DNA of 64,000 nucleotides from Escherichia coli phage Wa28, in the sequence record LC788710.1; one strand, given 5' to 3'. Positions 8,165-25,625 of the stretch are shown in pieces. Numbering within the stretch: position 1 is the first letter of the stretch; every line of letters begins with the position of its first letter. A program made the position numbers and the translations under genes. The notes under the pieces were generated by a model. It did not search any database. It was not told the origin of the DNA and saw only the letters and a list, made by a program, of their open reading frames with translations.

Positions 8165-8775
8165 AGACTTTCCCTCAAGGAAAGTGAAATACCAGTATAT
8201 GTACCATTACTATTTAACGTAGAGCCAAAACTGTCTCCGTTCATTAATTTAGTTCTAAACAGAATACCATTAAATACCGGTTTCTCACTACCCGTAGTAG
8301 TAATGAATAGATCAGGATAAACACTTATATTCCAAGTATTTCCTGCTGTGTTGATAGAAGTGATTTTGTACACTTTTGGATGGTTGGACAATTTAAATAA
8401 ATCGCCTGGTTTAGGCAGTCCACGAAGTGTACCTTTAGTGTCCATAATAACTATTGAACCTTTTTGTCCGGCAGGAATATTTACAGCACTAGTATCACCA
8501 CGAACTCGGAAAGCCTCATATTGTGGTAATAACACATCAATATAGCTACCTGTTCTTTTATAATCTAGAATGAATGAGTCTAATTTAGCAAATTCATCTG
8601 GGAATAATTCTGGATAAGAGATATTAATACCCCAATATTGAGCAGACACCTTAACCTCCCTAACTTTACCATTAGGTAATTCATCACGAATCATAGGGTC
8701 ATTGTCTACTAAGTTAACGCTTTCAAAACCTAACCCTGATAGCTCTGGGTTCGTGTATGGGTCTGGTAGTCTCAT
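8161..8775 (-). CDS. distal tail protein (pb9-like)
   Basis: 204 aa ORF directly downstream of tape measure gene. Confidence 0.55.
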   Translation of the reverse strand: MRLPDPYTNPELSGLGFESVNLVDNDPMIRDELPNGKVREVKVSAQYWGINISYPELFPDEFAKLDSFILDYKRTGSYIDVLLPQYEAFRVRGDTSAVNIPAGQKGSIVIMDTKGTLRGLPKPGDLFKLSNHPKVYKITSINTAGNTWNISVYPDLFITTTGSEKPVFNGILFRTKLMNGDSFGSTLNSNGTYTGISLSLRESL

Positions 8776-8883
8776 AGTTAATTTCTCCTCTTAATAACAA
8801 TATTATAATAGGATTGGAAAATTTTATCAAGAAATTTTTATTTTTCCATAAAGAAAAGGAGGACATAAAGTCCTCCTCCAGTA

Positions 8884-11800
8884 TTAAGAATTACCAAGTG
8901 ATTTCAGGGTGGTTCCATTCTCATTAAGAGCCTGTTCTACGGCATCCCTGAAAGCAGCACTGTTGCTCGAAGCAAAGTCTCGGAAGCTAGCCGCATCCAT
9001 CGTACTGATGTTCAGCACAATAGGTCTACCCGATGTACCCTTTGAAGATCCTTTGAGTTCATCAGTAGGAGTAGCCTTCATCGGAACCATAGGAGTGATT
9101 ACTTCGGTACCATGCTCACCCATCTGGTAACTAACTCCAGGATACATATTACCACCTTCTGCACGAGGTACGAAAGAGTTAGCATTACCAATCCCTTGAT
9201 CCCCTCGAATATAAGAAAGTTCTCCTGCGTTAGCCGACATAGAAACGTCTACGTTCTTCTGGCGCTCTCCAAGAGTTAAGTAACCAGCTGTCTCAGCACC
9301 AGAGTCCCCAATAGAAGACATACCAGATGCAGAGGATGCTTGAGCAAGAGCCATAGCACCTGCTAAACCAGCCGCAACCATCAGAGGAATAGAAAATGGG
9401 TATGGAACAGCTGTTGCTGCTTGCATCACCGCTACTGCCGTCTGGATAATGATTTGCTTCTTAGCTGCATCTTGCTGGATCTTGAGCTTTTCAGCCTCTA
9501 ACTTCTTGATCTTAGCTTTGGATTGCTCAGATTTACCATCACGTTTCTGTTCTGCTGCAATAGCTGCATCAATAGCACTTACCTGTTGACCAACACTATA
9601 CTGAATCATTGAAGACACAGTTTGCATACCAGCAGCAACTAAAGATGTAGTATCCAGAGATCCCTGAGAGAACTGAATCATAGCATTAGTTAGGTTACCC
9701 ATACTTTGTGCCACTGCAGTTGCTTCAGAGTTCAGCTCGGATAGTTTAGAGATAGCCTGGTCATAGGATGCCATTCTATTCTGCATATCCGCGAAAGCTT
9801 TGTCATCTCCAGATAGTCCAGTTGTAGGTGTATATGTAGCTCCTACAGATGAACCTACTTGTTGTTGCATTTGAGCATTTCTTTGGGCTGCTAATGCGGA
9901 CATTTGTGCTTGAGTTTTTGATATCTCAGAATTCCATCGCATCTGTTCATCCGCATTACCTTTAGTAAACTCTTTCATTTGTTTATAGAATTCTAACTGC
10001 ATTTCCATCTTTTGCATTTCCCCTGCTAGAGGGTACATGCCAGTTAATGTATTCTCAAATGCTTCCTGTCTTTTTGCTGCAACTCTGGATATATTATCTA
10101 ACCTAGCTTTCCAGATTTCACGCTCAATCTGTGCCTGAGCACGTCTTGATTGTTCAGCTTCCTTCTGCTTATCAATCTGCTTGGAGTACCACACATACTT
10201 CTCTTTCTCGATAGTCAGTTCAAGGTTCAACTGAGCTAAACGATATTGAGTATCTGTCATAGTACGGTTATTCAGGAGAGCTATTTCACGATCAACACCA
10301 AGAATCTTATCCGTATAGTCCTTAACTTTCTTCTGAGCTTCCATGTCCTGGTTAGTAATTTTTATACGTTCTAACTGAACCTTAGCTATTTCATTCTCAA
10401 TTGCCTTGTTACCCTTGTTAGTTTCTAGGACACGCTTAAGAGCTGCTTCCTGTTCTTCTAACTGTTGGATTTCTAGACGTCTACCCGCTTCCTGTGCTTT
10501 CTCTTTATCCTTGGTCTGGTTGTACACTTCGGCAATCTTCTGCTGAACTTCTAACTGATTCTTAGTCTCATTACCAGTTAATTTTACGTAACCAGCAAGA
10601 GCTTGTGAAGCAGTCTTCATCTCACTAAGAGTATTATACCCTAAGTTCAGGCTCTTAACATACTCATCAGCATTTTTACCAGTACCCGCAGAAAGAGACT
10701 CAATAGTCTTAATCGTATCTGATAGGGATGCACTAGTTTTAGCCGCAGTATTAGTATTCTGAGCGATGTTCTGGATATCGTTAGCTAAGTCACTGGCAGT
10801 TTTCTTAGCTTGGTCATACGCTTTCTGCTGTTCTGTCAATCCTTTCAGAGTTGCAGAGTTAAAGTCATAAACCGCATCCGGGTCATTTGCATCTTTCTGT
10901 AGGTTAATTTGCTTCTGGAATGCTGTATTAGATTTGGCTGCGGCAGCACCAGCAGCTTGGTATGCCGATTTCCATGCATTAAGATTGCCAGTTGAATCCT
11001 CTACTTCCTTATCAAGACGCTCTACCTGGAGAGCTAATGCAGCAGTATCTGCAATGAATTTCTGGTTTTCTTCAGAAGATCCTATGCGAACTCCTCCTAC
11101 TTCAAAACCTCCTGCAGCTAACCCTACCGGTGCACCTTGAGCAACTAAACGAATAGCCCCTGCTGTAGATGCATCTGCTTGCTGCATACGCTTGTCTAGA
11201 TCAGCTTTTAACTTATTACGCTTTTCTAGAGATTCTTTGTACATATCAAGAGCTTTATTATATCCTTCCTCAGAAGCGGAAAGACTTAAAGCTACAGCAC
11301 CAACGTTAGCTGGGTCAATCTGGCGGTTAGTTTCTTCCTGTGCTCTAGCAGCAGAGGCCGAGATAGATGCTTGAGAAGTATAGAACACTGCGTTGATAGA
11401 ATCAATTACTGGCCCTAAATACTTAGCAGCAGCCTGTTGAACCTTTCTCAGTGCAGCATCAGCATTAGCAGCAAACTGTTCCCAGGGGGTTGCACGAAGT
11501 ACATCATCAAGATAGCCGAAACGTTTAGTAGATTCAGCGATAACTGCGTTAGCATATGCTTGTTGCTTCTGGAAAGTAGAGAGACTATTAACGTTATATG
11601 TAATACCTGTGTTAGCAGCATTTAACTGTTTAACGTAGTCTGCGTAAGCATCGTTAAGACGAATAGTAACACCAAGTTCGTCCAGAAGTTCGATTTCTTG
11701 TTTAGATACACCCTTGATTACACGGTTAAGTGCATCAGTCATATCAACACCAAGAACAGCAGCAGCACGACGAGCTACTAGACCAAATTTATTAAGTTGT

Positions 11801-12594
11801 TCAGCATCGAATCCATATGCAGAAGCAGAGGATGCCTGTCTCATTGCTTCTTCGAAGGAGATTGCATAACCAGCAGCCTCTTGTAGAGATCTAGCTAGAG
11901 TTTGTACAGGAGTACCTGTTTGAGTACCAACAATAGTACCAAACTTCTCAAGACGGTTTAACTGGTCACCCATCTTAAGCTGTTCGAATGCAGATTGTAG
12001 AACGAACACGTTAGACGCGATAGCAGCATACATAAGAGGTAAACTACCACCCACTTTAGCCATTGCTGCGAAGTCACGAGTAGCACCACGTGCTGAACCA
12101 GAAGTATTACCAATTGCACGACTAGCACGTCCTGCGGAGGTAGTTGTATCGTTAAAGCCTCTAGCAGTATTGCCTAGTGCTCGGTTAGTATCATATAATC
12201 TATCTTGAACTTTTTCGGTTGCAGCAGCTACATCATTACCCATAGCCTTAACAGATTTACCCACATGTGTAAATCCAGACTCTAGCTTCTCAGATACTTC
12301 GATCATAGCAAGGGCAAGATCATCTAGCTTATCACCAATACCTTCAATGGATTTAGTGATACCAGCCATACCTCTACTAGCCTGCATTTTAGTTAGACTT
12401 TTAGCTGCTCTATCCGCCGCCCTCTCAATGGAGTAAAGAGTTTTGGGCATTTTTCCTAACTGCTCATTAGTCAGTTCGGAAGCGGCAGCAGCATTTTCTA
12501 ACGCATCGGAAACGTTCTCAATAGATTTTGCAGTACGGGTTGCCCCTTTCTGCTTTACATCTATAAGTAGTTCTCGTATTAGCTTATCAGTCAT
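8884..12594 (-). CDS. tail tape measure protein (pb2-like)
   Basis: 1236 aa, long coiled-coil-rich Ala/Gln/Glu/Lys central region, hydrophobic C-terminal segment; largest ORF in tail module. Confidence 0.85.
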   Translation of the reverse strand: MTDKLIRELLIDVKQKGATRTAKSIENVSDALENAAAASELTNEQLGKMPKTLYSIERAADRAAKSLTKMQASRGMAGITKSIEGIGDKLDDLALAMIEVSEKLESGFTHVGKSVKAMGNDVAAATEKVQDRLYDTNRALGNTARGFNDTTTSAGRASRAIGNTSGSARGATRDFAAMAKVGGSLPLMYAAIASNVFVLQSAFEQLKMGDQLNRLEKFGTIVGTQTGTPVQTLARSLQEAAGYAISFEEAMRQASSASAYGFDAEQLNKFGLVARRAAAVLGVDMTDALNRVIKGVSKQEIELLDELGVTIRLNDAYADYVKQLNAANTGITYNVNSLSTFQKQQAYANAVIAESTKRFGYLDDVLRATPWEQFAANADAALRKVQQAAAKYLGPVIDSINAVFYTSQASISASAARAQEETNRQIDPANVGAVALSLSASEEGYNKALDMYKESLEKRNKLKADLDKRMQQADASTAGAIRLVAQGAPVGLAAGGFEVGGVRIGSSEENQKFIADTAALALQVERLDKEVEDSTGNLNAWKSAYQAAGAAAAKSNTAFQKQINLQKDANDPDAVYDFNSATLKGLTEQQKAYDQAKKTASDLANDIQNIAQNTNTAAKTSASLSDTIKTIESLSAGTGKNADEYVKSLNLGYNTLSEMKTASQALAGYVKLTGNETKNQLEVQQKIAEVYNQTKDKEKAQEAGRRLEIQQLEEQEAALKRVLETNKGNKAIENEIAKVQLERIKITNQDMEAQKKVKDYTDKILGVDREIALLNNRTMTDTQYRLAQLNLELTIEKEKYVWYSKQIDKQKEAEQSRRAQAQIEREIWKARLDNISRVAAKRQEAFENTLTGMYPLAGEMQKMEMQLEFYKQMKEFTKGNADEQMRWNSEISKTQAQMSALAAQRNAQMQQQVGSSVGATYTPTTGLSGDDKAFADMQNRMASYDQAISKLSELNSEATAVAQSMGNLTNAMIQFSQGSLDTTSLVAAGMQTVSSMIQYSVGQQVSAIDAAIAAEQKRDGKSEQSKAKIKKLEAEKLKIQQDAAKKQIIIQTAVAVMQAATAVPYPFSIPLMVAAGLAGAMALAQASSASGMSSIGDSGAETAGYLTLGERQKNVDVSMSANAGELSYIRGDQGIGNANSFVPRAEGGNMYPGVSYQMGEHGTEVITPMVPMKATPTDELKGSSKGTSGRPIVLNISTMDAASFRDFASSNSAAFRDAVEQALNENGTTLKSLGNS

Positions 12595-12608
12595 TTATTT
12601 TTCCCAAT

Positions 12609-12639
12609 AAAAAAGGCTCTGGGCAAATCACCCAGAGCC
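12609..12639 (-). terminator. rho-independent terminator/attenuator just upstream of tape measure start
   Basis: hairpin GGCTCTGGG-caaatca-CCCAGAGCC followed on minus strand by U6; shares TTTTTTATTGGGAAAAATAAATG leader with the site at 17629. Confidence 0.6.
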
Positions 12640-12674
12640 AAGCCTCATCGTGGAACGCCCATTGGAGGAAACTT

Positions 12675-13043
12675 TTACTGAGCTCGAGATCTAGCATGCG
12701 GTTTAATGTTCGGAGTACGACCATTAGGTTTACTATGCTTCTCGGCTCTCTTACGAGCTGCATCTACAGCTTTCGAATCAAATATATTGATGATGTGTAG
12801 AACAAACTCTTTCTCTATAGGATCAGTAATCCCATAGATATCAAATAAAACACCTAGTGCACTTTTGTCTTTTCCTATAAAGATAGGAAAGTCACCTGGT
12901 ATGAAACAGTCAATAAGACTGTTATAAATATTCATACTAGTAGATACAATAGGTGGAAAATCTTCGAGTTCAACAGGCATTGCCTTAGGATCAGGTTCAA
13001 TACCTAGTGACTCACAAAGCATTAAATATTGTTGTTTTGTCAT
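12675..13043 (-). CDS. putative tail assembly chaperone
   Basis: 122 aa ORF immediately upstream of tape measure gene; position only. Confidence 0.35.
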   Translation of the reverse strand: MTKQQYLMLCESLGIEPDPKAMPVELEDFPPIVSTSMNIYNSLIDCFIPGDFPIFIGKDKSALGVLFDIYGITDPIEKEFVLHIINIFDSKAVDAARKRAEKHSKPNGRTPNIKPHARSRAQ

Positions 13044-13104
13044 TTTAGATGCTGAGGATTTAATGCATTTATCTGCAAAATCGGCAACAGCATCTAGTAA
13101 CTGC

Positions 13105-13509
13105 TTACGCTTTTGAGCTACGAAAAGTGTCTAAGTGGAACACTGTCTGGTTGATCCAAGAATCAAACGCAGCAGAGTTCTGCATAAGCATGATAGCATT
13201 ATCGCGGCTAAATGGAACTTCAGTAGTAGGATCAGCTTCAGTTTCGATAAGCATCAGCTTCTCAACATCTCCAATCGTCAAGCCAGTCCAGCCAGCAATT
13301 GCAGTATCAACGAAAGCTTCAATAAACTTATCATCATCCTGAACCTGAATCATAGTACCGTTAACCCACTCATCACGCTTAGCGGAAGAGATAACACGCT
13401 TAGATGCAGCACGAGACATGTAGTTCAGTTGCAGCTTGAAGTTAGGCATACCTGGATAAGCCAGCTCAATAGTACGAGTTTCAAGGGTAATATCTTTTAA
13501 ATTGATCAT
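13105..13509 (-). CDS. putative tail assembly chaperone
   Basis: 134 aa ORF upstream of tape measure gene; position only. Confidence 0.35.
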   Translation of the reverse strand: MINLKDITLETRTIELAYPGMPNFKLQLNYMSRAASKRVISSAKRDEWVNGTMIQVQDDDKFIEAFVDTAIAGWTGLTIGDVEKLMLIETEADPTTEVPFSRDNAIMLMQNSAAFDSWINQTVFHLDTFRSSKA

Positions 13510-14405
13510 TTCTTTATTTCTCCAAAGAAGTCGATTCTTACCGGATCAGAGTCTGCAGTAGGGATTACATCCCATTCAACTCTGTATATATCCGAGAATT
13601 GTAGGCGTTTTGTTATACGTGCTGAAGGAAAGTCAATCGAAATATGTTCATTTCGGATGGTTAATGGTATGTCAGTTTCGGGTTCAATATTATAAAACAT
13701 ATCACCAGCAAATCGCTTAGTGTAGTAAAATGCAATTGTTGCCGAAGCATTCATCTCATTAACATAAGCTCTCTTATTATTATATATTTTGTTTATGTCA
13801 AATACGCTTTTATCTTCTCTCCAAGAACATTGTTGCTGGAATGACATAGAAGCGGATAAAAGAGCCGGTAAAACGTTACTGTTAGTAGATACTCTAGGAG
13901 GACTATATGACATAACTTCACCCTGAACAATAGAACCAGCAGGAGTAAAAGTAGACACCTCAGAGAACTTACCAGATTCAATTCCTACGTTTAGAATAGG
14001 AACGCTTTTATCTAGAGAAAAGTCTACAGTAGATACATAGCAATTCTCAAAATACACACAGTTATTATCTTTATTAACTATGTATATATTAAACATTGTT
14101 GGCTCAATATTTGTACTATAAAGTGGTAGTAGGAATGTGTTACCCTCTCGGTCAAAGCCCATCCATTCAAAGAAGTTAGCTTCAGTAAGGGTATTACTAA
14201 AATTTATAGCCAGCGATATTGAAGATGGAGTTTGTGCATTAATAATAGAGTCAGCATAGTTGGTTCTACGATGGATAGTCCTACGAAGAGTTTTAAATTC
14301 CTCATAGGACGTATTGATATCGTAATTTGACAGGGCATCAAAATGATAAGCCCTGCCATCATACTCAACTATAACTTTTGACTCCCTCATTAGAGAGTAG
14401 TACAT
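13506..14405 (-). CDS. tail protein of unknown function
   Basis: 299 aa ORF between tail tube and chaperone genes. Confidence 0.4.
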   Translation of the reverse strand: MYYSLMRESKVIVEYDGRAYHFDALSNYDINTSYEEFKTLRRTIHRRTNYADSIINAQTPSSISLAINFSNTLTEANFFEWMGFDREGNTFLLPLYSTNIEPTMFNIYIVNKDNNCVYFENCYVSTVDFSLDKSVPILNVGIESGKFSEVSTFTPAGSIVQGEVMSYSPPRVSTNSNVLPALLSASMSFQQQCSWREDKSVFDINKIYNNKRAYVNEMNASATIAFYYTKRFAGDMFYNIEPETDIPLTIRNEHISIDFPSARITKRLQFSDIYRVEWDVIPTADSDPVRIDFFGEIKK

Positions 14406-14409
14406 TTAA

Positions 14410-15819
14410 TTAGCCACCAGAAGCAGTAACTGTAATGCTCTTAGTACCTTCTACACCAGAACCATCTTTAGCTACGGCTTTCACAGTAACTGCACCAGTC
14501 TTAGAAGCATCAGCGGTCAGTAAACCAGAAGTTGCATCAATAGTAGCAGCAGTACCGGAGGAAATAGACCAAGTTACTTCCTTATTAGTAGCTTCAGCAG
14601 GCAAAATATCTACAGTCATCTGAAGAGTTGCACTATTATCAACGGAAGCTGCATCACCAGCGGATTTAACAGTAATACCTGTTACCTTAACCGGAGCTGC
14701 TTTACCACCGTCACCAGTTGCAATCAGATTTGCAATAGTAGTTTTGGTGTACTTATTAGAGAAACCAAGATAACCTTCATCACCAGTATCCAGATCAGTA
14801 GGAATTGCTTTGAACTCTACAGAAGTACCAAGTACATCGTCAGTCTCAATAGTTGGGATGTTTACGTGAGCTTGCTTAGCAACCAGAACAGCAGCAGGGC
14901 GCTCATCGTCATATTCACCACCAAGTACTAGAGCGATTTCGAAACGGTTAACTACTTTCAGGGTCTTAATTAGATCTTTGTACAGATCCATAGAACCTAG
15001 AGCTTTATCGTTAAGATAAGCAGTTAGAGAACCAGTTAATTCGAATGCACCAGTAAATGAACCGATTGGGATGTTAACACGGGACATGACGTTCGGAGTC
15101 AGATAGGTGATGTTGTTGTTGATTGTAAAGCTACCACCAGTGATCGGAATGTCATACGCCTTACCAGTATCCATATCCTTAATTTTGAGGATAGTCAGTT
15201 TGTTCTTGATGTAAGAACCCTGGATAGTCATGTAAGTTTCATCATCAATACCTACAGTATCAGGATCAAATGGGGCAGCATCCAGAGGGATTAGCTGGTT
15301 ACCATTACCTGACCAAGTTACACGACCGATATCTTCGATATCAACGTTTACTTCAGCCTGGTTGATCTGACAGGAATCGATATAACTCCATGCTTTATCA
15401 GTAAGGATGTAAATGTGCAGCATTGCCAGTTCGTGGTATGCGTTATCCTTAAAGTTAACCATGAAGTTAGTTTCGTTAGTGTGAGCACCTGTATCGCCAT
15501 CTAGGTTGATAGGCTTACCACTAGAAAGAGCATGCCACAGCATGTAGTCCGGAACGATCTGCTTACTAGTAGTCTTATCTAAGTAAGGCAGGATGTAAGT
15601 AGAGAAACTCCACTCAGCTGCGTTCAGGGAGTCGTTGAAACGTTTTGAACCACGAGTTGGACGCGGACCAGCTTCGTTAACAGTAATATCGGTTGAGTTA
15701 CTGTCCTGACCCCAAGAAATATCATCTTGAACTAGAATCTCTTGCGTGTTGGTCTTATCGTGACCAGTCTTAACCGTAGACACGAAGATTCGAGTATTAC
15801 GTAATAGTTGTAAAGACAT
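14410..15819 (-). CDS. major tail tube protein (pb6-like) with C-terminal Ig-like domain
   Basis: 469 aa; C-terminal ~90 aa has Big_2-like Ig repeat features (VTGITV...TVKAVAKDGSG...TVTASGG); synteny. Confidence 0.75.
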   Translation of the reverse strand: MSLQLLRNTRIFVSTVKTGHDKTNTQEILVQDDISWGQDSNSTDITVNEAGPRPTRGSKRFNDSLNAAEWSFSTYILPYLDKTTSKQIVPDYMLWHALSSGKPINLDGDTGAHTNETNFMVNFKDNAYHELAMLHIYILTDKAWSYIDSCQINQAEVNVDIEDIGRVTWSGNGNQLIPLDAAPFDPDTVGIDDETYMTIQGSYIKNKLTILKIKDMDTGKAYDIPITGGSFTINNNITYLTPNVMSRVNIPIGSFTGAFELTGSLTAYLNDKALGSMDLYKDLIKTLKVVNRFEIALVLGGEYDDERPAAVLVAKQAHVNIPTIETDDVLGTSVEFKAIPTDLDTGDEGYLGFSNKYTKTTIANLIATGDGGKAAPVKVTGITVKSAGDAASVDNSATLQMTVDILPAEATNKEVTWSISSGTAATIDATSGLLTADASKTGAVTVKAVAKDGSGVEGTKSITVTASGG

Positions 15820-15845
15820 TTATTTATATTCTCCTAATCTGTAAC

Positions 15846-16331
15846 TTATCTGCGAAGTGCCCTACGAGGTGGCTGATACCTCACTGTTACATTTATTTCC
15901 GCTAAACCATATGGGGCCAGTAGACCCTCATCTGTAGCTACTGAGGTGATGCTCATATCAGTTGCCTCACATGGGAAGGTCGATCCATTAGGTTTACTAA
16001 CAGTATATTCTAAATTTCCACCTGTGTCAATGACGGTTTTTATGTCAGCTACGAGTTTTTCAAGTTGCTCTTGAATATCTGTTTTCTCTTTGTCATACAC
16101 GAGGATTGGAAGTTCTAAAAACATCCACTGTTGGCCTGAGGGAAGATACTGCCCAGTTTCAGTTCCGATATGGACTGCCACATAAGGAAATTCTCGGATT
16201 TCCTCGAATTTATAAGTTTGACGAGAAACGTTTCCATAAAGGTTATTGAAATACTCGTCAGGTTGTGAACCATCCATTTGTGTGGCGATTCGGTCAACCA
16301 CTGCTTGTGCAATACTTGTTCTGTGATCCAT
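15846..16331 (-). CDS. putative tail terminator / tail completion protein
   Basis: 161 aa ORF immediately upstream of tail tube gene. Confidence 0.4.
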   Translation of the reverse strand: MDHRTSIAQAVVDRIATQMDGSQPDEYFNNLYGNVSRQTYKFEEIREFPYVAVHIGTETGQYLPSGQQWMFLELPILVYDKEKTDIQEQLEKLVADIKTVIDTGGNLEYTVSKPNGSTFPCEATDMSITSVATDEGLLAPYGLAEINVTVRYQPPRRALRR

Positions 16332-16334
16332 TTA

Positions 16335-17102
16335 CTAGGTTCCTTGATTAACCTTGATTTTATATCTAGAGTGAATCAGGTCTCTTGCAGCTTTTGCGAT
16401 TGCTTCCCCAATAAGTTTTTGAGGGTTTCGAGCGCCAGGGTAAGGTCGTAGAGAAAGTCTTCGATATGTAGAAACTGCGGGGTTGAACACAGAGTAAGGA
16501 CGAACCATATAGTTATACGTCACATTCAGCTCTGGAGCACCTTTACTAGTTTCTGCATCACGTAGCATAACGTCTTTAATCTTTAAGGAGTTAGCAAAGC
16601 GACCAGTTCTGAACTTCAATGGTGCCCCTGCTTTTTTCATATCCTTGATTAAGTATTCCTTAGCTACTATCTCAAGAATAGCACGCATGTTACTATTCGA
16701 TACGAAACGACCGGAAGTACCTGTTACTGCACCAGAATAGCCATCTTCAGTATCTCTAGGATCTCCAAAGTTTACCTGAACTCTACCGGTAGAACGTTTT
16801 TTACCAACGGCGGAACGTTTACCTGCGGTTGCTTGAATTAGATTCTCTAGAGCACCTAAATCACCAGAAAGATCTAAGTTAGAAGAAACAGCCTTCAGTA
16901 TAGATGCTGTCCTAACATTTAATAAGTCTTGTGATACTGGTTTCGAGAATTTGAAAGATACCTGTGCAACTGTACCATCTCTTGTAGGATCTTTCAAACC
17001 TGTCTCAACTGTATACACAACAGTATTCTTATTATTCTCAGATCGTCCTGCAGTATCTAGCTGCTCTTTAATAATTTGTCTAGCTAGGTCAGAAAGAGCC
17101 AT
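16335..17102 (-). CDS. putative head-tail connector / head completion protein
   Basis: 255 aa ORF between capsid and tail genes. Confidence 0.35.
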   Translation of the reverse strand: MALSDLARQIIKEQLDTAGRSENNKNTVVYTVETGLKDPTRDGTVAQVSFKFSKPVSQDLLNVRTASILKAVSSNLDLSGDLGALENLIQATAGKRSAVGKKRSTGRVQVNFGDPRDTEDGYSGAVTGTSGRFVSNSNMRAILEIVAKEYLIKDMKKAGAPLKFRTGRFANSLKIKDVMLRDAETSKGAPELNVTYNYMVRPYSVFNPAVSTYRRLSLRPYPGARNPQKLIGEAIAKAARDLIHSRYKIKVNQGT

Positions 17103-17614
17103 TATACTCTCCTGTAGACTTCGATGATTGTACGAATATGCTCTGGAATACCAGACTTAGTATTGTTAAACGTAACTGTCTCACCACCAATAGTCTTGGC
17201 TTGACGATAATCTTGCTTATGCCAGTGATCTACTAACAGACATGCTGCCAGTTTAAGATCTTCAGGCATTGGATTGAAACCACCTTGAGTATACTCTACA
17301 TCCATATATCCTTCAGGAGGATTAAACTTAAGGAGAATAACACCATCAGGATACAGTTTAAACTGTTCCGGGTCTATTTCATTCTCGTTAATAGTCATCT
17401 TTGTAATAGATGTGGCTGAGGGAGAACTCAGGAAATATTTCCTACGGCTAGGTTTTGTAGTGATTAATTGATCTACCGCATCTGCATCATCCATACCTAG
17501 AAGGCTTGTAATCAGCGTATTGGCAGCTTTAATCATCATCTCAACCTGAGTTTCCATATCAGGTCGCTTTGCATTAGCATATAGTCTGTAGTCTTCAACA
17601 GTGATGATTTGCAT
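17102..17614 (-). CDS. putative head completion / adaptor protein
   Basis: 170 aa ORF downstream of major capsid gene. Confidence 0.35.
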   Translation of the reverse strand: MQIITVEDYRLYANAKRPDMETQVEMMIKAANTLITSLLGMDDADAVDQLITTKPSRRKYFLSSPSATSITKMTINENEIDPEQFKLYPDGVILLKFNPPEGYMDVEYTQGGFNPMPEDLKLAACLLVDHWHKQDYRQAKTIGGETVTFNNTKSGIPEHIRTIIEVYRRV

Positions 17615-17628
17615 TTATTTTTCCCAAT

Positions 17629-17652
17629 AAAAAAGGAGAGCCGAAGCTCTCC
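17629..17652 (-). terminator. rho-independent terminator after major capsid gene
   Basis: hairpin GGAGAGC-cgaa-GCTCTCC (UUCG tetraloop on the transcript) followed by U6 on minus strand. Confidence 0.65.
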
Positions 17653-17673
17653 TTATCGGCTGAAAAGCCTGTA

Positions 17674-19050
17674 TTAAGATGCAGCGTAAGCACCAGATAC
17701 AACGCCGTTTTCGAAGTAACGTTGCAGGTTAACACGCTGGGTAACGTAGTATGCGTCACGCTGTTTGCCAGCTTGGCGCTCACGTTCAACAGTAACGGCA
17801 CGCTGACGCGGCATTACGAAGTTATCTTTATAAACAATAACTGCGAATTCAGCGGAAGCAGCTTTAGCTGGGAAGTACTCAGAAACTACAACCGGCAGAC
17901 CGTAAATACGACCAACCTGACCCTGCAGTTTAACAGCATCGTTACCAACCTGGGCAACATCCTGCCATTCTTCATCTTCCAGCAGATCGTAGTAAGCATC
18001 CATAGATACGATCAGTACCAGTTTGCTCAGTTTCAGACCGTGACGGCCCAGTTTACGACGCAGCTTGGAGATAGTCTTAGCAGTTACCAGAACAGAACCG
18101 TCAGCTTTAGCTTCGGTAACAACCTTAGCACCATCATCAGCAGCCAGTTTCAGCAGACCCTTAGGCTGACCAGTACCATTACCGGACATGAAAGCTTCTT
18201 CGATAGAAACAGCGTGTGCTTCGATCAGACGCTTACGCAGCAGAGGCAGTAGGGAGAAGATTGCATCTTCTTCAGTTTCATCAGTGATGAAGGACTTAGC
18301 AGCCAGCTTGTAAGTTTTGAAGCTGATTTCAGTCAGTTGACCTTTAACTTCGTCACCAACAGTTTCGTCAGTACCGAATTTGGAAGCATCTACCCAAGTA
18401 GCACGACCAGCTTCTGGTTCAACGAGCATAGTAAGGATTTTGCTGGACATTGGCAGTTCATCGAACAGTGCACCAACTACCAGTTCCTTCTGCAGGTCAC
18501 GGATAATACGGGTAGAGAAGATAGTTTCGTATGCTTCGCTAGACATGGAAACGGAAGAAGAACCGTTAACAGCTTTAACGTGAGCCTTACCATGTTCAGT
18601 TTCGAATACGTCTTTCTCCATCATATAAGACAGAAGAACCAGTTTCTCAACTTCATCTTCGAAAGCATCCTGAGTGCCATAAAGAGCTTTAGCTACGCTA
18701 TCACCAACGAAGGAACGACCTTCACGAGCTGCCAACAGAGACTTGATTTCGTCCTGAAGACCAACGATGGTTTCCTGTTGCTTTTCTACAGTCTGTGCAA
18801 ACAGTTCTGCGCTCTTCTTAGACTTCTCATCCAGGTTCTTAACCAGATCCAGAGCTTCTTCCAGACGCTTACGGTCTTCACCAACAGCTTTAGATACTAG
18901 GTCGTTCATACGAGCCAGTTCTTTTTCTTCCTGCTCTTCACGCAGACGCTTAGCTTCCGCAGCTTTCTGAGCAGCAGTCAGACCTTCCAGAGATTTAGCC
19001 AGATCACCCAGACCAAGTTCTTCCTTCAGCTTATTAATATCAATAGTCAT
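17674..19050 (-). CDS. major capsid protein precursor (pb8-like, HK97 fold) with N-terminal scaffolding delta domain
   Basis: 458 aa; N-terminal ~150 aa charged coiled coil then capsid-like body; higher GC and codon bias typical of a highly expressed gene; terminator follows. Confidence 0.8.
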   Translation of the reverse strand: MTIDINKLKEELGLGDLAKSLEGLTAAQKAAEAKRLREEQEEKELARMNDLVSKAVGEDRKRLEEALDLVKNLDEKSKKSAELFAQTVEKQQETIVGLQDEIKSLLAAREGRSFVGDSVAKALYGTQDAFEDEVEKLVLLSYMMEKDVFETEHGKAHVKAVNGSSSVSMSSEAYETIFSTRIIRDLQKELVVGALFDELPMSSKILTMLVEPEAGRATWVDASKFGTDETVGDEVKGQLTEISFKTYKLAAKSFITDETEEDAIFSLLPLLRKRLIEAHAVSIEEAFMSGNGTGQPKGLLKLAADDGAKVVTEAKADGSVLVTAKTISKLRRKLGRHGLKLSKLVLIVSMDAYYDLLEDEEWQDVAQVGNDAVKLQGQVGRIYGLPVVVSEYFPAKAASAEFAVIVYKDNFVMPRQRAVTVERERQAGKQRDAYYVTQRVNLQRYFENGVVSGAYAAS

Positions 19051-19067
19051 TTTTAAATAATTCTCCG

Positions 19068-19700
19068 TTATTCTTTAACGTAGCCTAAAGCTATCGCAAG
19101 TTTTTCTAGTTCAGAAAGATTACGTTCTTGAGCTGGGACAGCCTTAGAACTTGTTGCAGTAAAAGATTTGCGCCATTCAGTGTAATCGTGGCCATTCATA
19201 CTCTTAGCGAGGTTGAACGTTGAGTCCTGATTACAGGGTACAGAAACTACCGAAACTTCGTATAGTTCTAAATCTTTAATAATAAATATGTCAGTAGCTT
19301 CATCCCATTCTGCGTCTAGGCAGCGGAATCCGATACTGAAGGTTTTCAGTACACCGTTTTTAATTAGTGAGAAGATAGCTGGATCAGAACTTTCATAAAT
19401 CTCGCATTCAATTTCGAGACCCATTTCAGTAGGGTTAAGATCAATACACTTGCCGATTGGACGACGATGGTCGTGGCCGAAAAGAATAATCGGGTTTTTC
19501 ATGTAGTTAGCAAGTGCATTAGACGTTTTCCATGCCGAAGCAGGAATTACGTCACCAGCGCGATCTTTACTAATTGTATTAGCGAATCCACGGATTTTTA
19601 CAACACCCTCTTTGGATTCGCTATCAATAGACTTAATGTAAGCGTCTAAATGAACCGGTGCTGATTTTAACTTGTTATAGTCAATAGCAGCATTTGTCAT
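19068..19700 (-). CDS. prohead maturation protease
   Basis: 210 aa ORF directly upstream of capsid gene; synteny. Confidence 0.6.
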   Translation of the reverse strand: MTNAAIDYNKLKSAPVHLDAYIKSIDSESKEGVVKIRGFANTISKDRAGDVIPASAWKTSNALANYMKNPIILFGHDHRRPIGKCIDLNPTEMGLEIECEIYESSDPAIFSLIKNGVLKTFSIGFRCLDAEWDEATDIFIIKDLELYEVSVVSVPCNQDSTFNLAKSMNGHDYTEWRKSFTATSSKAVPAQERNLSELEKLAIALGYVKE

Positions 19701-19703
19701 TTA

Positions 19704-20186
19704 TTAAGCCTCCGGCGCAGGGTTGATAGTTGTTACACACTCATTAGAAGTAATGGAAGTAGATTTACTATCCGTTACAACAACTTTGTAAGTACCAGCA
19801 TCTTCTGCAGCAGCTGTAGCTTTGTTGAAGTTAGGGCCAGTAACACCACTAAGTGGAGAACCGTCTTTAGTCCAAGCATAAGTATATGGTGCAGTACCAC
19901 CAGTAACTGTTACGCCCAGATTAATTGCTGCACCAGTATCAACAGCTAGAGTTTTAGCCAGATTCTTCGTGAAAGCTAGAGCCGGAACAACCGGAGCAGT
20001 AACTTCGTATTCTTCTTTGAACTTATTCCAAACCTTGCGGTTGGTATGTGCAGTGGTCATTCCAAACTCTTTACGTAGAGTAGCGTAGTTTGGAACGAAC
20101 TTGTGTGCTGCAACCGTAGCAAAGAAGATATGAGATTCTGGCAGCTTTTCACCAAAAATGGCCTTTAGACCATCATAATCAATCAT
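19704..20186 (-). CDS. Ig-like domain capsid decoration protein (pb10-like)
   Basis: 160 aa; C-terminal Ig-like motif TVTGGTAPYTYAWTKDGSPL...AGTYKVVVTD. Confidence 0.55.
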   Translation of the reverse strand: MIDYDGLKAIFGEKLPESHIFFATVAAHKFVPNYATLRKEFGMTTAHTNRKVWNKFKEEYEVTAPVVPALAFTKNLAKTLAVDTGAAINLGVTVTGGTAPYTYAWTKDGSPLSGVTGPNFNKATAAAEDAGTYKVVVTDSKSTSITSNECVTTINPAPEA

Positions 20187-21400
20187 TCTTTATCCCCATC
20201 GGCAGTGCCTTGCGGTCTACCACCTTCTTGACCAGATACACCTGTTGCAGAACCAGCAACGTTAGCAGGAATACGAATCTTATTCATCTGCTCATCATCT
20301 AAAGGTTCAAGGTTAAGCTCTTCACGAGCCTCGTTACCAGTCATGATACCGTTATTAACCAAAGAGGTTAAATGTTTAGCCTCAGCTTCTTTATCTGGCG
20401 TCAGTGCAGCTACTTCCTTAGTATTAGGAGTAACCTTGTAGCCAAAGAAGAAAGTAAGAGAACTAGTCAGCTTGTTCAGCATAGGAATGATAGTCATGTA
20501 ATAGAACAATTCGATGTTTGGTCGAATGTTAGCATTATTACCGCCATCAAGTAACACTTGCGGAACACCAAAGGCAAGACAGATGGATTTATTAAATCCT
20601 TCGATATCTTCCTTGAAGTCTAGATCTTTAAAAGAGGATATTTGGGAGTACGGTTTTGCTTTCATACCACCATCTAGAATCAGGACAGTAGACTGACCTG
20701 TACTAGGATTATAATCGAGTTGTAATTCTTCTTGTTTACGCTCACGCAATTTCTTGTTCAGGATTTCATCCGTCTCAAGAATAAGACCAATCACAGTGCC
20801 GTTATCGAGGAACTTCTCTTTAAAGTTAAGCATTTTAGAACGCTTCTCAAGAGAGTCAATAACTGTAGCAACACGAGATTGTCCAGAAATTTGGGAGTTT
20901 GTGCCACACACGTAACTGTTATCCTTTATAAAGATAATCTCATCTACGCGATAGTCTATCTGGTTATTAAATATGAATTTTTTGATAAACTTATTGGCAT
21001 CTGCCTCTACTTGCATTAGTGCAGCAGGGACATGGTAAAGTGCTGTGCCATCCCAATAGATGTATGCACAACCCTCAAAAAGTAGGTCAGTGACTACAAG
21101 TCTACGGAATGTGCTTATATCCATGAATGGATTAGGTCGTACATTTAAGAGAGTGTCTAGAGTCTTTGCCTTGACGCCATTAGCGTACGTGACAATATTA
21201 TATTTATCTCCGACAGTATAAGAACACTCCGCCGCACTATCGATAACCATGTTAGCAGTTCGGTTGAGAATCTCAATCTTACTGTAGGCTTGTCCAGTGG
21301 TAAATGGCTTACGGTTAGTGCGATGACTAACTGGTTCCATGTCTCTTATAATACGTTGACCCGGATTTAGCTTTTCAGTAATCCAGCTTTTTAAACCCAT
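20183..21400 (-). CDS. portal protein
   Basis: 405 aa ORF between terminase/HNH and protease; synteny and size. Confidence 0.7.
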   Translation of the reverse strand: MGLKSWITEKLNPGQRIIRDMEPVSHRTNRKPFTTGQAYSKIEILNRTANMVIDSAAECSYTVGDKYNIVTYANGVKAKTLDTLLNVRPNPFMDISTFRRLVVTDLLFEGCAYIYWDGTALYHVPAALMQVEADANKFIKKFIFNNQIDYRVDEIIFIKDNSYVCGTNSQISGQSRVATVIDSLEKRSKMLNFKEKFLDNGTVIGLILETDEILNKKLRERKQEELQLDYNPSTGQSTVLILDGGMKAKPYSQISSFKDLDFKEDIEGFNKSICLAFGVPQVLLDGGNNANIRPNIELFYYMTIIPMLNKLTSSLTFFFGYKVTPNTKEVAALTPDKEAEAKHLTSLVNNGIMTGNEAREELNLEPLDDEQMNKIRIPANVAGSATGVSGQEGGRPQGTADGDKE

Positions 21401-21924
21401 TATAAGAACCTTGCGAATCCTGATTTAGTTTCAGTCTTGACTTGTGTCTTTTCTTGAGGATTCTGTAGCTTTTCCTTTTGTTTAAGAACCCATGCCTTCT
21501 GCTTATTAGCAGAGAAAAGGGGAGGTTCCTTAGTGTACACCTTATGTAATAGTTGGTGATGGTGGACACAAAGGGTAACAGTGTCATCTACTAGCTCATG
21601 CCTATATCTTTCATAGAATGCCGTCCTATTTGAGAGGACTGTTTCTTCGTCAGTGAAATCCAATTGGAGTTCTTTAGCAAATTTTTTAACTAGTAGAGAC
21701 ACTGTATGGTAATGATGAAGCTCTAATTCTTCACCACAACCACAGATTTCGCAGCGATCGGCTTTTTTATATTGACTTTTTATACCGTCTCGCATGAGTG
21801 ATATAGCATCACGTTTATATTTTACATTTCCTGCCACAGTATTCTCCTCAACTGTATGAATATAGTATACATAATCATGTCGAATTTGTAAAGGGGATTT
21901 TAAAATGCAGGAATGGGATACCAA
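21400..21924 (-). CDS. HNH endonuclease
   Basis: 174 aa; CEICGC...ELHHYH...CVHHHQLLH zinc-binding HNH-type motifs; next to terminase. Confidence 0.65.
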   Translation of the reverse strand: MVSHSCILKSPLQIRHDYVYYIHTVEENTVAGNVKYKRDAISLMRDGIKSQYKKADRCEICGCGEELELHHYHTVSLLVKKFAKELQLDFTDEETVLSNRTAFYERYRHELVDDTVTLCVHHHQLLHKVYTKEPPLFSANKQKAWVLKQKEKLQNPQEKTQVKTETKSGFARFL

Positions 21925-21951
21925 CTGAGTAGTATCCCATCCTATACTTAT

Positions 21952-23268: not shown

Positions 23269-23750
23269 TATCTCTTACCTCCTCCTGCTAGAGCGGTAAT
23301 AAGATTCATATAGTTTTCGTCACCACTTCCAGCAATAATATTATTCTGAATATTAGTCTGGTTAGCCGGAGTACGGGCTGCTGCCTTCACTTTCTCCAGT
23401 TCTACCATCATTTTCATTTCTTCCATCTTCATCTTGTGCGCCTTCCAGAGAATATCCATGATATCCTGGTCAGAACCCATGCCAGTTTCTTCGAGTTCTT
23501 CCAACTTGCGCTTGATAACTTCATCAAGAACTCCGAATAAGCGGTCACGATTACGGAAGCCGCTTTCCATAAAGATATCGTTAAGATAGTTTTTAACTTC
23601 CCCACGATTCATTATATCACGGAATGCAATCTCGGACATTCCAAGACTACGAGCGGCGGCAGGAACATCACTACCGCACTGTAAATAGGCTTCAATAACA
23701 TCCATGCCTTCGGGAGACATGAGATCGGGAACTAATACATCATTTGCCAT
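23268..23750 (-). CDS. putative DNA-binding protein / small terminase candidate
   Basis: 160 aa; N-terminal HTH-like segment; adjacent to large terminase. Confidence 0.4.
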
Positions 23751-23760
23751 ATATCCTCCT

Positions 23761-25542: not shown

Positions 25543-25625
25543 ACAATCTCCTTCTTTAAAAATGTATTTGCTTAGATCCCTCTATTTTGCTATAATATAT
25601 TTATAAATTAAACAGAGGAACGATT

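What the first reader, a model, noticed from the sequence alone, without database searches (positions are those of the whole stretch)
12594..17655. Shared terminator-leader module precedes tape measure and head-completion genes
Both 12598-12640 and 17612-17655 read (minus strand) GC-rich hairpin, U6, ATTGGGAAAAATAAATG, where ATG is the start codon of the next gene. The ~23-nt leader is identical at both sites and lacks a canonical Shine-Dalgarno. A terminator placed just 15-20 nt before a start codon suggests programmed attenuation that sets the expression ratio of capsid to head-completion protein and of chaperones to tape measure, or a shared translational enhancer.
Basis: seen in the sequence. 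Interest (0 to 1): 0.5.

Follow-up and report, generated by a model that had tools for sequence, protein, structure and literature searches.

The report
Two leaky terminators before low-copy genes
In this T5-like Salmonella phage, two near-identical transcription-stop hairpins sit directly in front of the weak start sites of two genes whose proteins are needed in only a few copies per virus particle. They most likely throttle those genes, which is an ordinary and already predicted kind of phage control, although this one is unusually well conserved.

Summary
A 25-nt string, CCTTTTTTATTGGGAAAAATAAATG, occurs exactly twice on the minus strand (12616-12592 and 17636-17612). Each copy follows a GC-rich hairpin and ends in the ATG of the tape measure gene or the head-completion (adaptor) gene.

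The window is a T5-like Epseptimavirus. The 25-mer splits into two functional halves:
- The 3' half of a canonical intrinsic terminator: stem base, U6 and an 'AU' edge.
- A ribosome site: a weak SD-like GGGA, a 7-nt A-rich spacer and AUG. Relatives carry GAGG, GGAG or AGGAGG at the same spot.

Terminators at both positions are kept across Demerecviridae, with different and compensating stems. A conserved consensus promoter lies between them, inside the tail-terminator gene. The layout therefore separates high-copy genes (capsid 775, tail tube 120) from low-copy ones (adaptor 12, tape measure). Only 20 nt separate each hairpin from an essential gene's ATG, so both terminators must leak.

'No SD' is overstated. 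These terminators are already annotated in T5, AKFV33 and KEY records.

Two things stay unexplained: the capsid-site spacer is invariant beyond what a terminator needs, and a conserved TTTCCTCC block lies upstream of the tape-measure terminator.

The parts
17633..17654 (-). T1: intrinsic terminator hairpin after the major capsid gene. AAGGAGAGC-UUCG-GCUCUCCUU; core stem GGAGAGC/GCUCUCC with a C(UUCG)G tetraloop.
   Evidence: dG -14.5. Same position in 17 lineages with about 10 different stems. Compensatory G-C to A-U change in L061/L079. Annotated as a terminator in AY587007, AKFV33 and KEY.
17612..17634 (-). U6 tract (17634-17629), AU bubble-edge plus U (17628-17626), weak SD GGGA (17625-17622), A-rich spacer (17621-17615), and ATG of the head-completion/adaptor gene (17614-17612).
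   Evidence: Seafire annotators mark GGGA as the RBS. All 170 residues of T5 p144 are modelled by cryo-EM, so this ATG is the real start.
17658..17669 (-). Small upstream hairpin GGCU-UUUC-AGCC between the capsid stop codon (17676-17674) and T1.
   Evidence: A GGC...GCC mini-hairpin followed by GA is kept, with different loops, in Priuna-, Sugarland- and Novosibvirus, KEY, L067 and L068. Function unknown.
12615..12639 (-). T2: intrinsic terminator hairpin after the tail assembly chaperone genes. GGCUCUGGG-UGAUUUG-CCCAGAGCC.
   Evidence: dG -19.1. Stems covary across lineages: GGCCUAGGG/CCCUAGGCC, GCUCUAGGCG/CGUCUAGAGC, AGCCUUGG/CCAAGGCU and others. Full match to G-11 C-10 ... A-2 U-1 of the GC(U)7RU motif. 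Annotated as a terminator in AY587007, AKFV33 and KEY.
12592..12614 (-). U6 tract (12614-12609), AU plus U (12608-12606), weak SD GGGA (12605-12602), A-rich spacer (12601-12595), and ATG of the tape measure gene (12594-12592).
   Evidence: Tequintaviruses carry 3 extra nt (AAC/AAT) before the ATG. In T5 itself this leader is replaced by a homing-endonuclease insertion.
12641..12674 (-). Conserved non-coding block AAGTTTCCTCCAATGGGCGTTCCACGATGAGGCTT between the chaperone stop codon (12677-12675) and T2. It can fold as a CCUC/GAGG hairpin.
   Evidence: TTTCCTCC is kept even in distant metagenomic relatives. Function unexplained.
16002..16030 (-). Internal sigma-70-type promoter TTGACA-17-TATACT inside the tail-terminator gene, about 180 nt upstream of the tail tube gene. 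It restarts transcription between T1 and T2.
   Evidence: 11/12 match. Found at the same offset (about 1.52-1.68 kb after the head-completion ATG) in 13 of 15 lineages, including Vibrio phage D239 at 12/12.
8855..8879 (-). T3: terminator after the tape measure gene. It closes the read-through unit.
   Evidence: Annotated in AKFV33 and KEY.
8802..8830 (-). Promoter TTGATA-17-TATAAT for the distal tail protein, hub and following genes.
   Evidence: 11/12. Annotated as a T5-type promoter in AKFV33. Conserved in relatives.

Best explanation
The two sites are compact terminator-RBS junctions inside the late structural gene cluster of a T5-like phage.

How each junction works. Each is a canonical Rho-independent terminator: a GC-rich hairpin, a U6 tract and an 'AU' bubble-edge dinucleotide. 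Its last bases run straight into the ribosome-binding site of the next gene, which has a weak SD-like GGGA, a 7-nt A-rich spacer and AUG. Host RNA polymerase coming from the upstream high-copy genes mostly stops at the U-tract. Those upstream genes are portal to capsid for T1, and tail tube to chaperones for T2, the latter driven by the promoter at 16030-16002. The minority that reads through makes the only mRNA for the adaptor, tail completion and tail terminator proteins (after T1) and for the tape measure protein (after T2). The weak SD lowers translation further.

Net effect. A fixed, constitutive step-down in expression that matches virion stoichiometry.

Why the two copies are identical. 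The 25-nt identity reflects the same two functional halves, terminator 3' end plus weak RBS, kept by purifying selection at two sites. It does not indicate a special shared 'leader element'.

Shown versus inferred. Shown here: the sequence anatomy, conservation, covariation, gene identities and promoter conservation. Inferred: actual termination, the read-through fraction and translation strength.
For: 1. Terminator anatomy: stems of 9 bp, loops of 4-7 nt, U6.
2. UUUUUUAU fits the (U)nRU edge of the GC(U)7RU 'HUB' motif, which was shown necessary for termination with B. subtilis RNAP and also emerges with E. coli RNAP. T2 also has G-11/C-10; T1 has C-10.
3. A hairpin plus U-tract is present at both junctions in all lineages examined, down to 39-47% capsid identity, with about 10 different stems at each site. 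There is a clean G-C to A-U double change in L061/L079. The U-tract columns are invariant.
4. GGGA aligns with GAGG, GGAG, AAGG and AGGAGG of relatives at the same spacing. Its SD energy of -4.2 kcal/mol is among the weakest of 19 late genes. The RBS is moderately open at 3.4 and 4.4 kcal/mol.
5. Only 20 nt and no promoter match lie between each hairpin and the ATG of an essential virion protein, so read-through is obligatory.
6. A near-consensus promoter between T1 and T2 is conserved in 13/15 lineages. T3 plus a promoter follow the tape measure gene.
7. Copy numbers: 775 capsid, 12 adaptor p144 (170 aa), 6 tail terminator, 40 trimeric rings (120 copies) of tail tube protein (PMC11313276).
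8. Strong purifying selection. The capsid-site spacer is identical in 23/26 Tequinta/Epseptimavirus genomes, pi = 0 against 0.17-0.28 at flanking third codon positions. At the tape measure site, base substitutions fall only in loops and the last 3 nt before the ATG, and there are single-base length changes in the U-run and A-run.
9. Of 8 strong terminators in the window, only these two abut a start codon.
Against: - No expression data (RNA 3' ends, coverage, reporter) could be consulted, so termination efficiency and read-through are inferred.
- T5 modifies host RNA polymerase late in infection (own knowledge). That could make it terminator-resistant and turn the hairpins into mere RNA 3'-end or stability elements.
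- The capsid-site spacer is far more conserved than a generic terminator plus weak RBS needs. It includes loops and linkers, and 46 nt are identical in a Providencia phage whose capsid protein is 53% identical to the window's. This hints at an extra constraint.
- p140 is trimeric in the virion yet lies in the 'high' unit, so stoichiometry is not set by the terminators alone.
- T1 has U-11 instead of G-11 of the HUB motif.
Confidence: 0.66

Rival explanations
1. The module is a sequence-specific cis-element: an RNA operator for a phage or host protein, an antitermination or RNAP-modifying signal, or a ribosome standby site using the SD-like AAGGAG arm. It would co-regulate the adaptor and tape measure genes. 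Termination plus a weak RBS would then be only part of its job.
For: - The whole 59-nt capsid-site spacer has zero diversity in 23/26 genomes, although neighbouring synonymous sites vary.
- 340 of 564 phage records are at least 99% identical to it.
- The hairpin AGGAGAGCTTCGGCTCTCCT and the leader are base-for-base identical in Priunavirus and near-identical in Sugarland- and Novosibvirus, where the adaptor protein is only 31-65% identical.
- 15 nt of RBS are identical at two sites.
- There is an extra conserved TTTCCTCC block at the tape measure site.
Against: - Viable relatives tolerate changes: GGGA to GGA, AGGA or GGGT; hairpin GGAGAGC to AGAGAGC with compensation; different hairpin-1 loops.
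- T5 itself lacks the GGGAAAAATAAA leader before the tape measure gene.
- More distant lineages keep only the architecture, with unrelated stems and canonical SDs.
- No Rfam family matches, and no conserved alternative structure was found.
- The same UUCG hairpin turns up in unrelated phages as a generic terminator.
Confidence: 0.13
2. The hairpins do not terminate late T5 transcription to any useful degree. They act as mRNA 3'-end, processing or stability elements, or as insulators that keep the downstream RBS unstructured. Expression ratios would then be set by translation and mRNA decay.
For: - Stable hairpins right after capsid genes are common mRNA stabilisers (own knowledge).
- The RBS just 3' of each hairpin is fairly open.
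- T5-modified RNAP could ignore terminators (own knowledge, untested).
Against: - An invariant U-tract plus RU edge follows the hairpin in essentially every lineage. That is needed for termination but not for stability or insulation.
- T2 matches the full HUB motif.
- The internal promoter placed between T1 and T2 makes sense only if transcription is lost at T1.
Confidence: 0.1
3. The exact identity and ultraconservation come from DNA-level homogenisation: gene conversion between the two copies, or co-conversion during homing-endonuclease invasion of these spacers. Selection on the sequence itself would not be the cause.
For: - Homing-endonuclease-like ORFs sit in exactly these two spacers in several relatives.
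- The variant modules are mostly found in or next to endonuclease-carrying alleles: L053, L061, L079, and L060 shares L053's variant.
Against: - Changes at one site are not mirrored at the other. L060 changes only the capsid site; L047, L056 and all Tequintavirus AAC/AAT insertions change only the tape measure site. So there is no concerted evolution.
- Conservation ends sharply at the stop codon and at the ATG, whereas co-conversion tracts would spill into coding flanks.
Confidence: 0.07
4. The module contains a late promoter, as annotated in T5 record AY587007 ('putative late promoter T5P40').
For:: a 90-nt 'putative late promoter' feature spans the capsid-site module and the first 38 nt of the adaptor gene.
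Against: - The scan finds no -35/-10 match at either module.
- The clear late-region promoters here are consensus sigma-70 type.
- That record starts ORF137 at a later ATG, but cryo-EM models all 170 residues of p144. A start site inside the feature's 3' part would therefore miss the true ATG.
- The annotation is a prediction only.
Confidence: 0.03

Closest known systems
Phage T7 terminator T-phi downstream of gene 10, the major capsid gene (own knowledge)
   Same: An intrinsic-type terminator placed right after the capsid gene. It is leaky, so capsid mRNA is in excess while downstream tail and packaging genes are still expressed by read-through.
   Different: T-phi acts on T7 RNA polymerase. 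It is not fused to the next gene's RBS and is not duplicated with an identical leader. Here host sigma-70 RNAP is presumed.
Intra-operon attenuating terminators of E. coli macromolecular-synthesis operons, such as T1 between rpsU and dnaG and the rplL-rpoB attenuator (own knowledge)
   Same: A constitutive partial terminator between a high-copy and a low-copy gene. For dnaG it is combined with a poor RBS to step expression down.
   Different: These are cellular operons. The distance to the next start codon is larger, and there is no repeated module.
[quoted passage not shown]
   Same: T2 reads GC-CUUUUUU-AU, a full match. T1 reads UC-CUUUUUU-AU. The conserved 'AU' or 'GU' after the U-run in nearly all lineages is the RU edge.
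   Different: The U-run is 6 rather than 7, with a C at -9. Termination by these particular sequences is not measured.
Predicted terminators already annotated at these junctions in T5 (AY587007), AKFV33 (NC_017969), Erwinia phage KEY (MZ616364), EASG3 and AKM_ECS
   Same: The same hairpins at the same gene junctions.
   Different: In the literature that could be searched, none of these annotations or papers comments on the shared 25-nt string, its split into terminator edge plus weak RBS, the family-wide conservation or the link to copy number.
SPP1 late gene clusters delimited by stem-loop terminators (PMC6316719)
   Same: Late structural gene clusters of a siphovirus bracketed by potential Rho-independent terminators in intergenic regions.
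   Different: Different family and host. No terminator-RBS fusion or repeated leader is described.

Membership tests
Rho-independent (intrinsic) transcription terminator | GC-rich hairpin (stem of at least about 5-6 bp, loop 3-8 nt) | tested here: met
   T2: 9-bp stem, 7 GC pairs, dG -19.1. T1: 7-9 bp stem with a C(UUCG)G loop, dG -14.5.
Rho-independent (intrinsic) transcription terminator | U-rich tract immediately 3' of the stem | tested here: met
   U6 at both sites. The T columns are invariant across 13-17 lineages.
Rho-independent (intrinsic) transcription terminator | Bubble-edge dinucleotides GC at -11/-10 and RU at -2/-1 (HUB model) | tested here: met
   T2 has G-11, C-10, A-2, U-1. 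T1 has U-11, C-10, A-2, U-1, a partial match. The sequences were read.
Rho-independent (intrinsic) transcription terminator | Structure maintained by compensatory change in relatives | tested here: met
   About 10 distinct stems per site at the same position. G-C to A-U double change in L061/L079. Formal pair counting on the MAFFT alignment was not used, because the stems were out of register.
Rho-independent (intrinsic) transcription terminator | RNA 3' ends and loss of downstream transcription in vivo or in vitro | not testable with these tools
   No T5-family Term-seq or RNA-seq data could be accessed. Literature searches found none.
Regulated transcription attenuator (riboswitch, leader peptide, T-box or protein-mediated) | Conserved alternative antiterminator structure or sensor upstream of the terminator | tested here: not met
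   - A GCUUUUC:GGAGAGC alternative noted by eye in the window is absent in PSTCR5 (sequence).
- RNAalifold gives only weak, non-covarying long-range pairs.
- No uORF is conserved.
- No Rfam hit.
Shine-Dalgarno-led bacterial translation initiation region | At least 4 nt complementary to the 16S 3' end, 5-10 nt upstream of the AUG | tested here: met
   GGGA gives 4 pairs including one G-U, -4.2 kcal/mol, with a 7-nt gap. Orthologous positions carry GAGG, GGAG or AGGAGG. It is annotated as an RBS in Seafire. The SD is weak, not absent.
A/U-rich (ribosomal protein S1-type) translational enhancer | U- or A/U-rich single-stranded tract just 5' of the SD that raises translation | not testable with these tools
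   The sequence feature is present (UUUUUUAUU upstream of GGGA) and the region is predicted to be fairly open. The enhancing effect cannot be measured here. T5 is viable without this leader at the tape measure site.
Sigma-70 promoter ('putative late promoter T5P40' of AY587007) | -35 and -10 hexamers with 16-18 nt spacing upstream of the gene start | tested here: not met
   The scan gives no hit of at least 9/12 within 17660-17600 or 12640-12595 on the minus strand. True late-region promoters score 11/12.

The most novel reading that the evidence does not exclude
The capsid-to-adaptor spacer, and to a lesser degree the chaperone-to-tape-measure spacer with its TTTCCTCC block, would be an ultraconserved cis-regulatory RNA of Demerecviridae. 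A dedicated phage or host factor would read its exact sequence, not just the hairpin-U-tract architecture. Candidates are an antiterminator acting on T5-modified RNA polymerase or a translational repressor. Such a factor would couple the supply of connector and tape measure proteins to the state of assembly.
Probability: 0.1. Interest if true: 0.55.

Novelty: new member of a known kind. Interest (0 to 1): 0.3.

Why it matters
If the reading is right, it gives a simple, testable wiring diagram for how T5-like phages set protein ratios across their structural genes. The span is roughly 775 to 12 copies per particle, reached with only host RNA polymerase. The parts are strong promoters, two leaky terminators fused to weak ribosome sites, and one internal promoter.

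The junctions are compact natural parts, about 45 nt each, that combine a defined transcriptional step-down with a defined weak start site. That makes them useful for phage engineering and synthetic operons.

They are also good natural test cases for the hairpin/U-tract/bubble-edge model of termination.

The open point is the extreme conservation of the capsid-site spacer. It is invariant in hundreds of genomes and across genera. It may hide an additional function, or it may explain why homing endonucleases target this site.

Tried and rejected
- **Known RNA family.** cmscan of 8000-27000 at E up to 10 found nothing at either site.
- **Hidden coding in the TTTCCTCC block.** KFPPMGVPR* follows in frame after the chaperone stop codon in the window and in KEY, with apparently synonymous CCA CGA to CCT AGA changes. 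In KpGranit, PM135 and PSTCR5 the block is in a different frame relative to the stop. TTT CCT CCA also shows no third-position variation. Rejected as read-through.
- **uORF in the tape measure spacer.** ATG AGG CTT... is not conserved: GTG in KpGranit, none in PM135.
- **Antiterminator at the capsid site.** GCUUUUC could pair with GGAGAGC in the window, but not in PSTCR5. Rejected.
- **Long-range anti-SD helix.** UUCCA:UGGGA (RNAalifold) and UUUCC:GGGAA are A/U-rich, weak, broken in KEY, and have a covariation term of only -1.47. Left as unexplained.
- **Concerted evolution of the two copies.** Changes are site-specific. Rejected.
- **Third copies.** None in the window, and at most 2 per IMG/VR contig. 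The sequence after T3 resembles the leader, but there it lies in the A/T-rich upstream region of a promoter.
- **T5 nick sites.** From memory the nick consensus contains GCGC, which both modules lack. The BF23 paper gave no motif.
- **Promoter in the module.** No scan hit.
- **Formal pair counting.** Abandoned on the MAFFT alignments because the hairpin arms were out of register between lineages. Per-sequence folding was used instead.
- **Literature on T5-family transcriptomes or mapped late transcripts.** Nothing usable was found. Nakayama 1994, on the BF23 late genes, is not held.

Full report
**What the window is.** The 600-nt stretches around both sites are 100% identical to T5-like Salmonella phages: LVR16A at the tape-measure site and GEC_vB_N3 at the capsid site. 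The nearly identical relatives whose taxonomy was retrieved (Seafire) are Epseptimavirus, family Demerecviridae. About 88% identity holds to T5 and other tequintaviruses. The late structural genes lie on the minus strand. PHROG scans confirm the following:
- major head protein, 19050-17674
- head-tail adaptor / head completion protein, 17614-17102
- tail completion protein and tail terminator protein
- major tail (tube) protein, 15819-14410
- two tail-assembly-chaperone ORFs, 13509-13105 and 13043-12675
- tape measure protein, 12594-8884

**The observation.**
- Site T2: GGCTCTGGG-TGATTTG-CCCAGAGCC (12639-12615), T6, ATTGGGAAAAATAA, ATG (12594-12592).
- Site T1: AAGGAGAGC-TTCG-GCTCTCCTT (17654-17633), T6, ATTGGGAAAAATAA, ATG (17614-17612).
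- The identical run is 25 nt, CCTTTTTTATTGGGAAAAATAAATG.
- The 23-mer occurs twice and nowhere else even at 3 mismatches, with 0 expected.
- Among 4465 pairs of ORF upstream regions, this pair shares 25 nt up to the ATG. The runner-up shares 10.
- Both hairpins top the terminator scan. Both regions fold better than shuffles, z = -3.6 and -3.1.

**Anatomy of the 25-mer.** It is two functional halves, not one 'leader'.
- The first 10 nt, CC-UUUUUU-AU, are the base of the stem, the U-tract and a purine-U dinucleotide.
- A recent large-scale study found that strong intrinsic termination sites have the form GC(U)7RU, and that hairpin and U-tract without these bubble-edge dinucleotides barely terminate (bioRxiv 10.64898/2026.05.29.728758).
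- Counted back from the U of 'AU', T2 has G-11, C-10, A-2 and U-1. T1 has U-11, C-10, A-2 and U-1.
- The remaining 15 nt, U-GGGA-AAAAUAA-AUG, are a ribosome site.
- GGGA can form four pairs with the 16S 3' end (-4.2 kcal/mol) at a 7-nt gap. That places it among the weakest of 19 late genes.
- The region is moderately open, 3.4 and 4.4 kcal/mol to unfold. The capsid gene needs 1.75.
- Seafire's annotators marked this GGGA as the RBS. 'No canonical SD' should therefore read 'weak SD'.

**Relatives.** I collected the two junctions independently of the motif. A capsid-protein profile found 58 loci in IMG/VR. I added annotated genomes of Erwinia phage KEY, Klebsiella KpGranit (Sugarlandvirus), Proteus PM135 (Novosibvirus), Providencia PSTCR5 (Priunavirus) and Vibrio D239.
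- Every lineage with the junction intact has a strong hairpin plus U-run between the capsid and adaptor genes, and another just before the tape measure gene. In D239 the second one precedes an extra ORF upstream of it.
- There are about ten different stem sequences at each site.
- L061 and L079 show a clean GGAGAGC/GCUCUCC to AGAGAGC/GCUCUCU double change.
- The U-run is followed by AU or GU in almost all lineages.
- The distance from hairpin to ATG is 15-24 nt at the capsid site and mostly 16-27 nt at the tape measure site.
- The purine block at the SD position varies: GGGA, GGA, AGGT, GAGG, GGAG, AGGAGG.
- So the architecture (terminator, then immediately an RBS) is ancient. The leader is conserved as a class, and the exact string is conserved within the enterobacterial genera.

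**Strength of constraint.**
- Among 26 distinct Tequinta/Epseptimavirus genomes, the 65 nt from capsid stop codon to adaptor ATG are identical in 23. The other three differ only by small indels or local changes in the stem end, U-run or leader. Nucleotide diversity is 0 in those 23, against 0.17 and 0.28 at third codon positions in the flanking 300 nt.
- Across GenBank phages, 564 records match this spacer and 340 are at least 99% identical.
- PSTCR5 and PR1 (Priunavirus; capsid 53% identical to the window's) share 46-49 nt essentially base for base. PM135, whose adaptor protein is 31% identical, differs only by GGGT for GGGA.
- At the tape measure site, base substitutions fall only in loops and in the 3 nt before the ATG. 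There are also single-base length changes in the U-run and the A-run.
- Tequintaviruses carry an extra AAC or AAT before the ATG. The identity 'right up to the ATG' is therefore an Epseptimavirus feature; 23 nt are shared in T5-type phages.
- Changes at one site are not mirrored at the other, so the two copies are not being homogenised against each other.

**Transcription-unit context.**
- Only 20 nt and no promoter-like match lie between each hairpin and the ATG.
- The adaptor and the tape measure are essential virion parts. If the hairpins terminate at all, they must leak.
- A near-consensus promoter, TTGACA-17-TATACT (16030-16002), sits inside the tail-terminator gene upstream of the tail tube gene. 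It recurs at the same offset in 13 of 15 lineages, including 12/12 matches in Novosibvirus, a metagenomic clade and Vibrio D239.
- After the tape measure gene come a third terminator (8879-8855) and a TTGATA-17-TATAAT promoter (8830-8802).
- The inferred units are:
  - [... portal, protease, capsid] T1
  - [adaptor, tail completion, tail terminator]
  - P [tail tube, p140, chaperones] T2
  - [tape measure] T3
  - P [distal tail protein, hub, ...]
- Cryo-EM copy numbers: 775 capsid, 12 adaptor p144 (170 residues, all modelled), 6 tail terminator, 40 trimeric rings (120 copies) of tail tube protein (PMC11313276). The tape measure fills the tube, at about 3 copies from memory.
- T1 and T2 thus sit exactly at the large drops in required copy number.
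- Of eight strong terminator-like hairpins in the 64-kb window, only these two abut a start codon. The rest are 69-177 nt from the next ORF.

**Natural experiments.**
- In three tequintaviruses a homing-endonuclease-like ORF is inserted between the capsid stop codon and the small upstream hairpin. The terminator-leader module stays attached to the adaptor ATG.
- In T5 itself an ORF of about 265 aa is inserted right after TTTTTTATT of T2. The tape measure ATG is then preceded by CAGGAAAACATTAG.
- The specific GGGAAAAATAAA leader is therefore dispensable at that site. The terminator travels with the upstream unit.
- Variant modules (GGA, AGGA, the compensated stem) show tolerance to change. This argues against a strictly sequence-specific operator.

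**Comparison with what is known.**
- Leaky terminators after capsid genes (T7 T-phi) and intra-operon attenuators combined with poor RBSs (rpsU-dnaG) are textbook cases (own knowledge).
- SPP1 late clusters are likewise bracketed by stem-loop terminators.
- Terminators at these very junctions are already annotated in T5 AY587007, AKFV33, KEY and others.
- AY587007 also annotates a 'putative late promoter T5P40' across the T1 module. I find no -35/-10 match there. That record's later start for ORF137 also conflicts with the 170-residue cryo-EM model.
- I found no paper that discusses the shared string, its decomposition or its family-wide conservation. The library lacks much of the older T5 and BF23 literature.

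**What remains unexplained.**
- (i) The capsid-site spacer is invariant in loops and linkers as well as in stems, and across genera. That is more than a terminator plus weak RBS should require.
- (ii) A non-coding block, AAGTTTCCTCCAATGGGCGTTCCACGATGAGGCTT (12674-12641), follows the chaperone stop codon.
  - Its anti-SD-like TTTCCTCC is kept even in distant metagenomic lineages.
  - It folds as a CCUC/GAGG hairpin in enterobacterial lineages but not in all others.
  - It is not a read-through peptide.
  - The proposed pairings with the tape measure SD are weak.
- (iii) The sequence after T3 (TTTATGGAAAAATAAAAA) resembles the leader although it precedes a promoter.
- These points keep open a minority reading of about 10-13%: that a sequence-specific factor reads these spacers.

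**Verdict.** The attenuation interpretation is the best-supported mechanism, but it rests on comparative inference. The feature is a well-conserved new example of a known kind of control, and it is already partly annotated. Interest is modest.

Noticed in passing
window 16002-16030 (minus strand): Near-consensus sigma-70 promoter TTGACA-17-TATACT embedded in the coding sequence of the tail-terminator gene, upstream of the tail tube gene. It is conserved at the same offset in 13/15 Demerecviridae lineages, up to 12/12 matches in Vibrio phage D239.
   Followed up: yes
window 12641-12674 (minus strand): Deeply conserved non-coding block (AAGTTTCCTCC...GAGGCTT) between the chaperone stop codon and the tape-measure terminator. 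The anti-SD-like TTTCCTCC is kept even where everything else has diverged. Function unknown.
   Followed up: partly
window 13105-13130 (minus strand); ORFs 13509-13105 and 13043-12675: The two tail-assembly-chaperone ORFs match one PHROG profile end to end, which implies a programmed frameshift. The second ORF is in the +1 (equivalently -2) frame relative to the first, not the usual -1. The overlap contains CTTTTCG and CTCAAAAGCG.
   Followed up: partly
L053 9435-10034, L061 9467-10039, L079 9394-9966; L059 (T5) 14396-15208; L097 12037-12834: Homing-endonuclease-like ORFs are inserted in exactly these two intergenic regions in some relatives. At the capsid site they sit upstream of the module. 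In T5 the ORF sits between the terminator and the tape measure ATG. Endonuclease-carrying alleles carry variant modules, possibly target-site immunity.
   Followed up: partly
window 8835-8854 (minus strand): The sequence after the third late terminator, TTTTCTTTATGGAAAAATAAAAA, resembles the shared leader ATTGGGAAAAATAAA. It precedes the -35 of a promoter, probably as an A/T-rich upstream element. It is conserved in Tequinta/Epseptimavirus and KEY.
   Followed up: partly
L097 (T5 AY587007) 7014-7141: The T5 GenBank record annotates a 90-nt 'putative late promoter T5P40' over the capsid-site module and starts ORF137 at a downstream ATG (144 aa). Cryo-EM models all 170 residues of the adaptor, so the module ATG is the true start and the record is probably mis-annotated.
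   Followed up: yes
one search hits H178-H180 (Pseudomonas phage EM, Escherichia virus TH47, Vibrio phage K480): The same hairpin GGAGAGC-TTCG-GCTCTCC with a T-run appears in unrelated phages. This suggests it is a recurrent 'generic' strong terminator rather than a family-specific signal.
   Followed up: no
window 17658-17669 (minus strand): A small GGC...GCC hairpin followed by GA sits between the capsid stop codon and T1. It is kept, with different loop sequences, in several genera. In PM135 its loop contains the capsid stop codon.
   Followed up: partly
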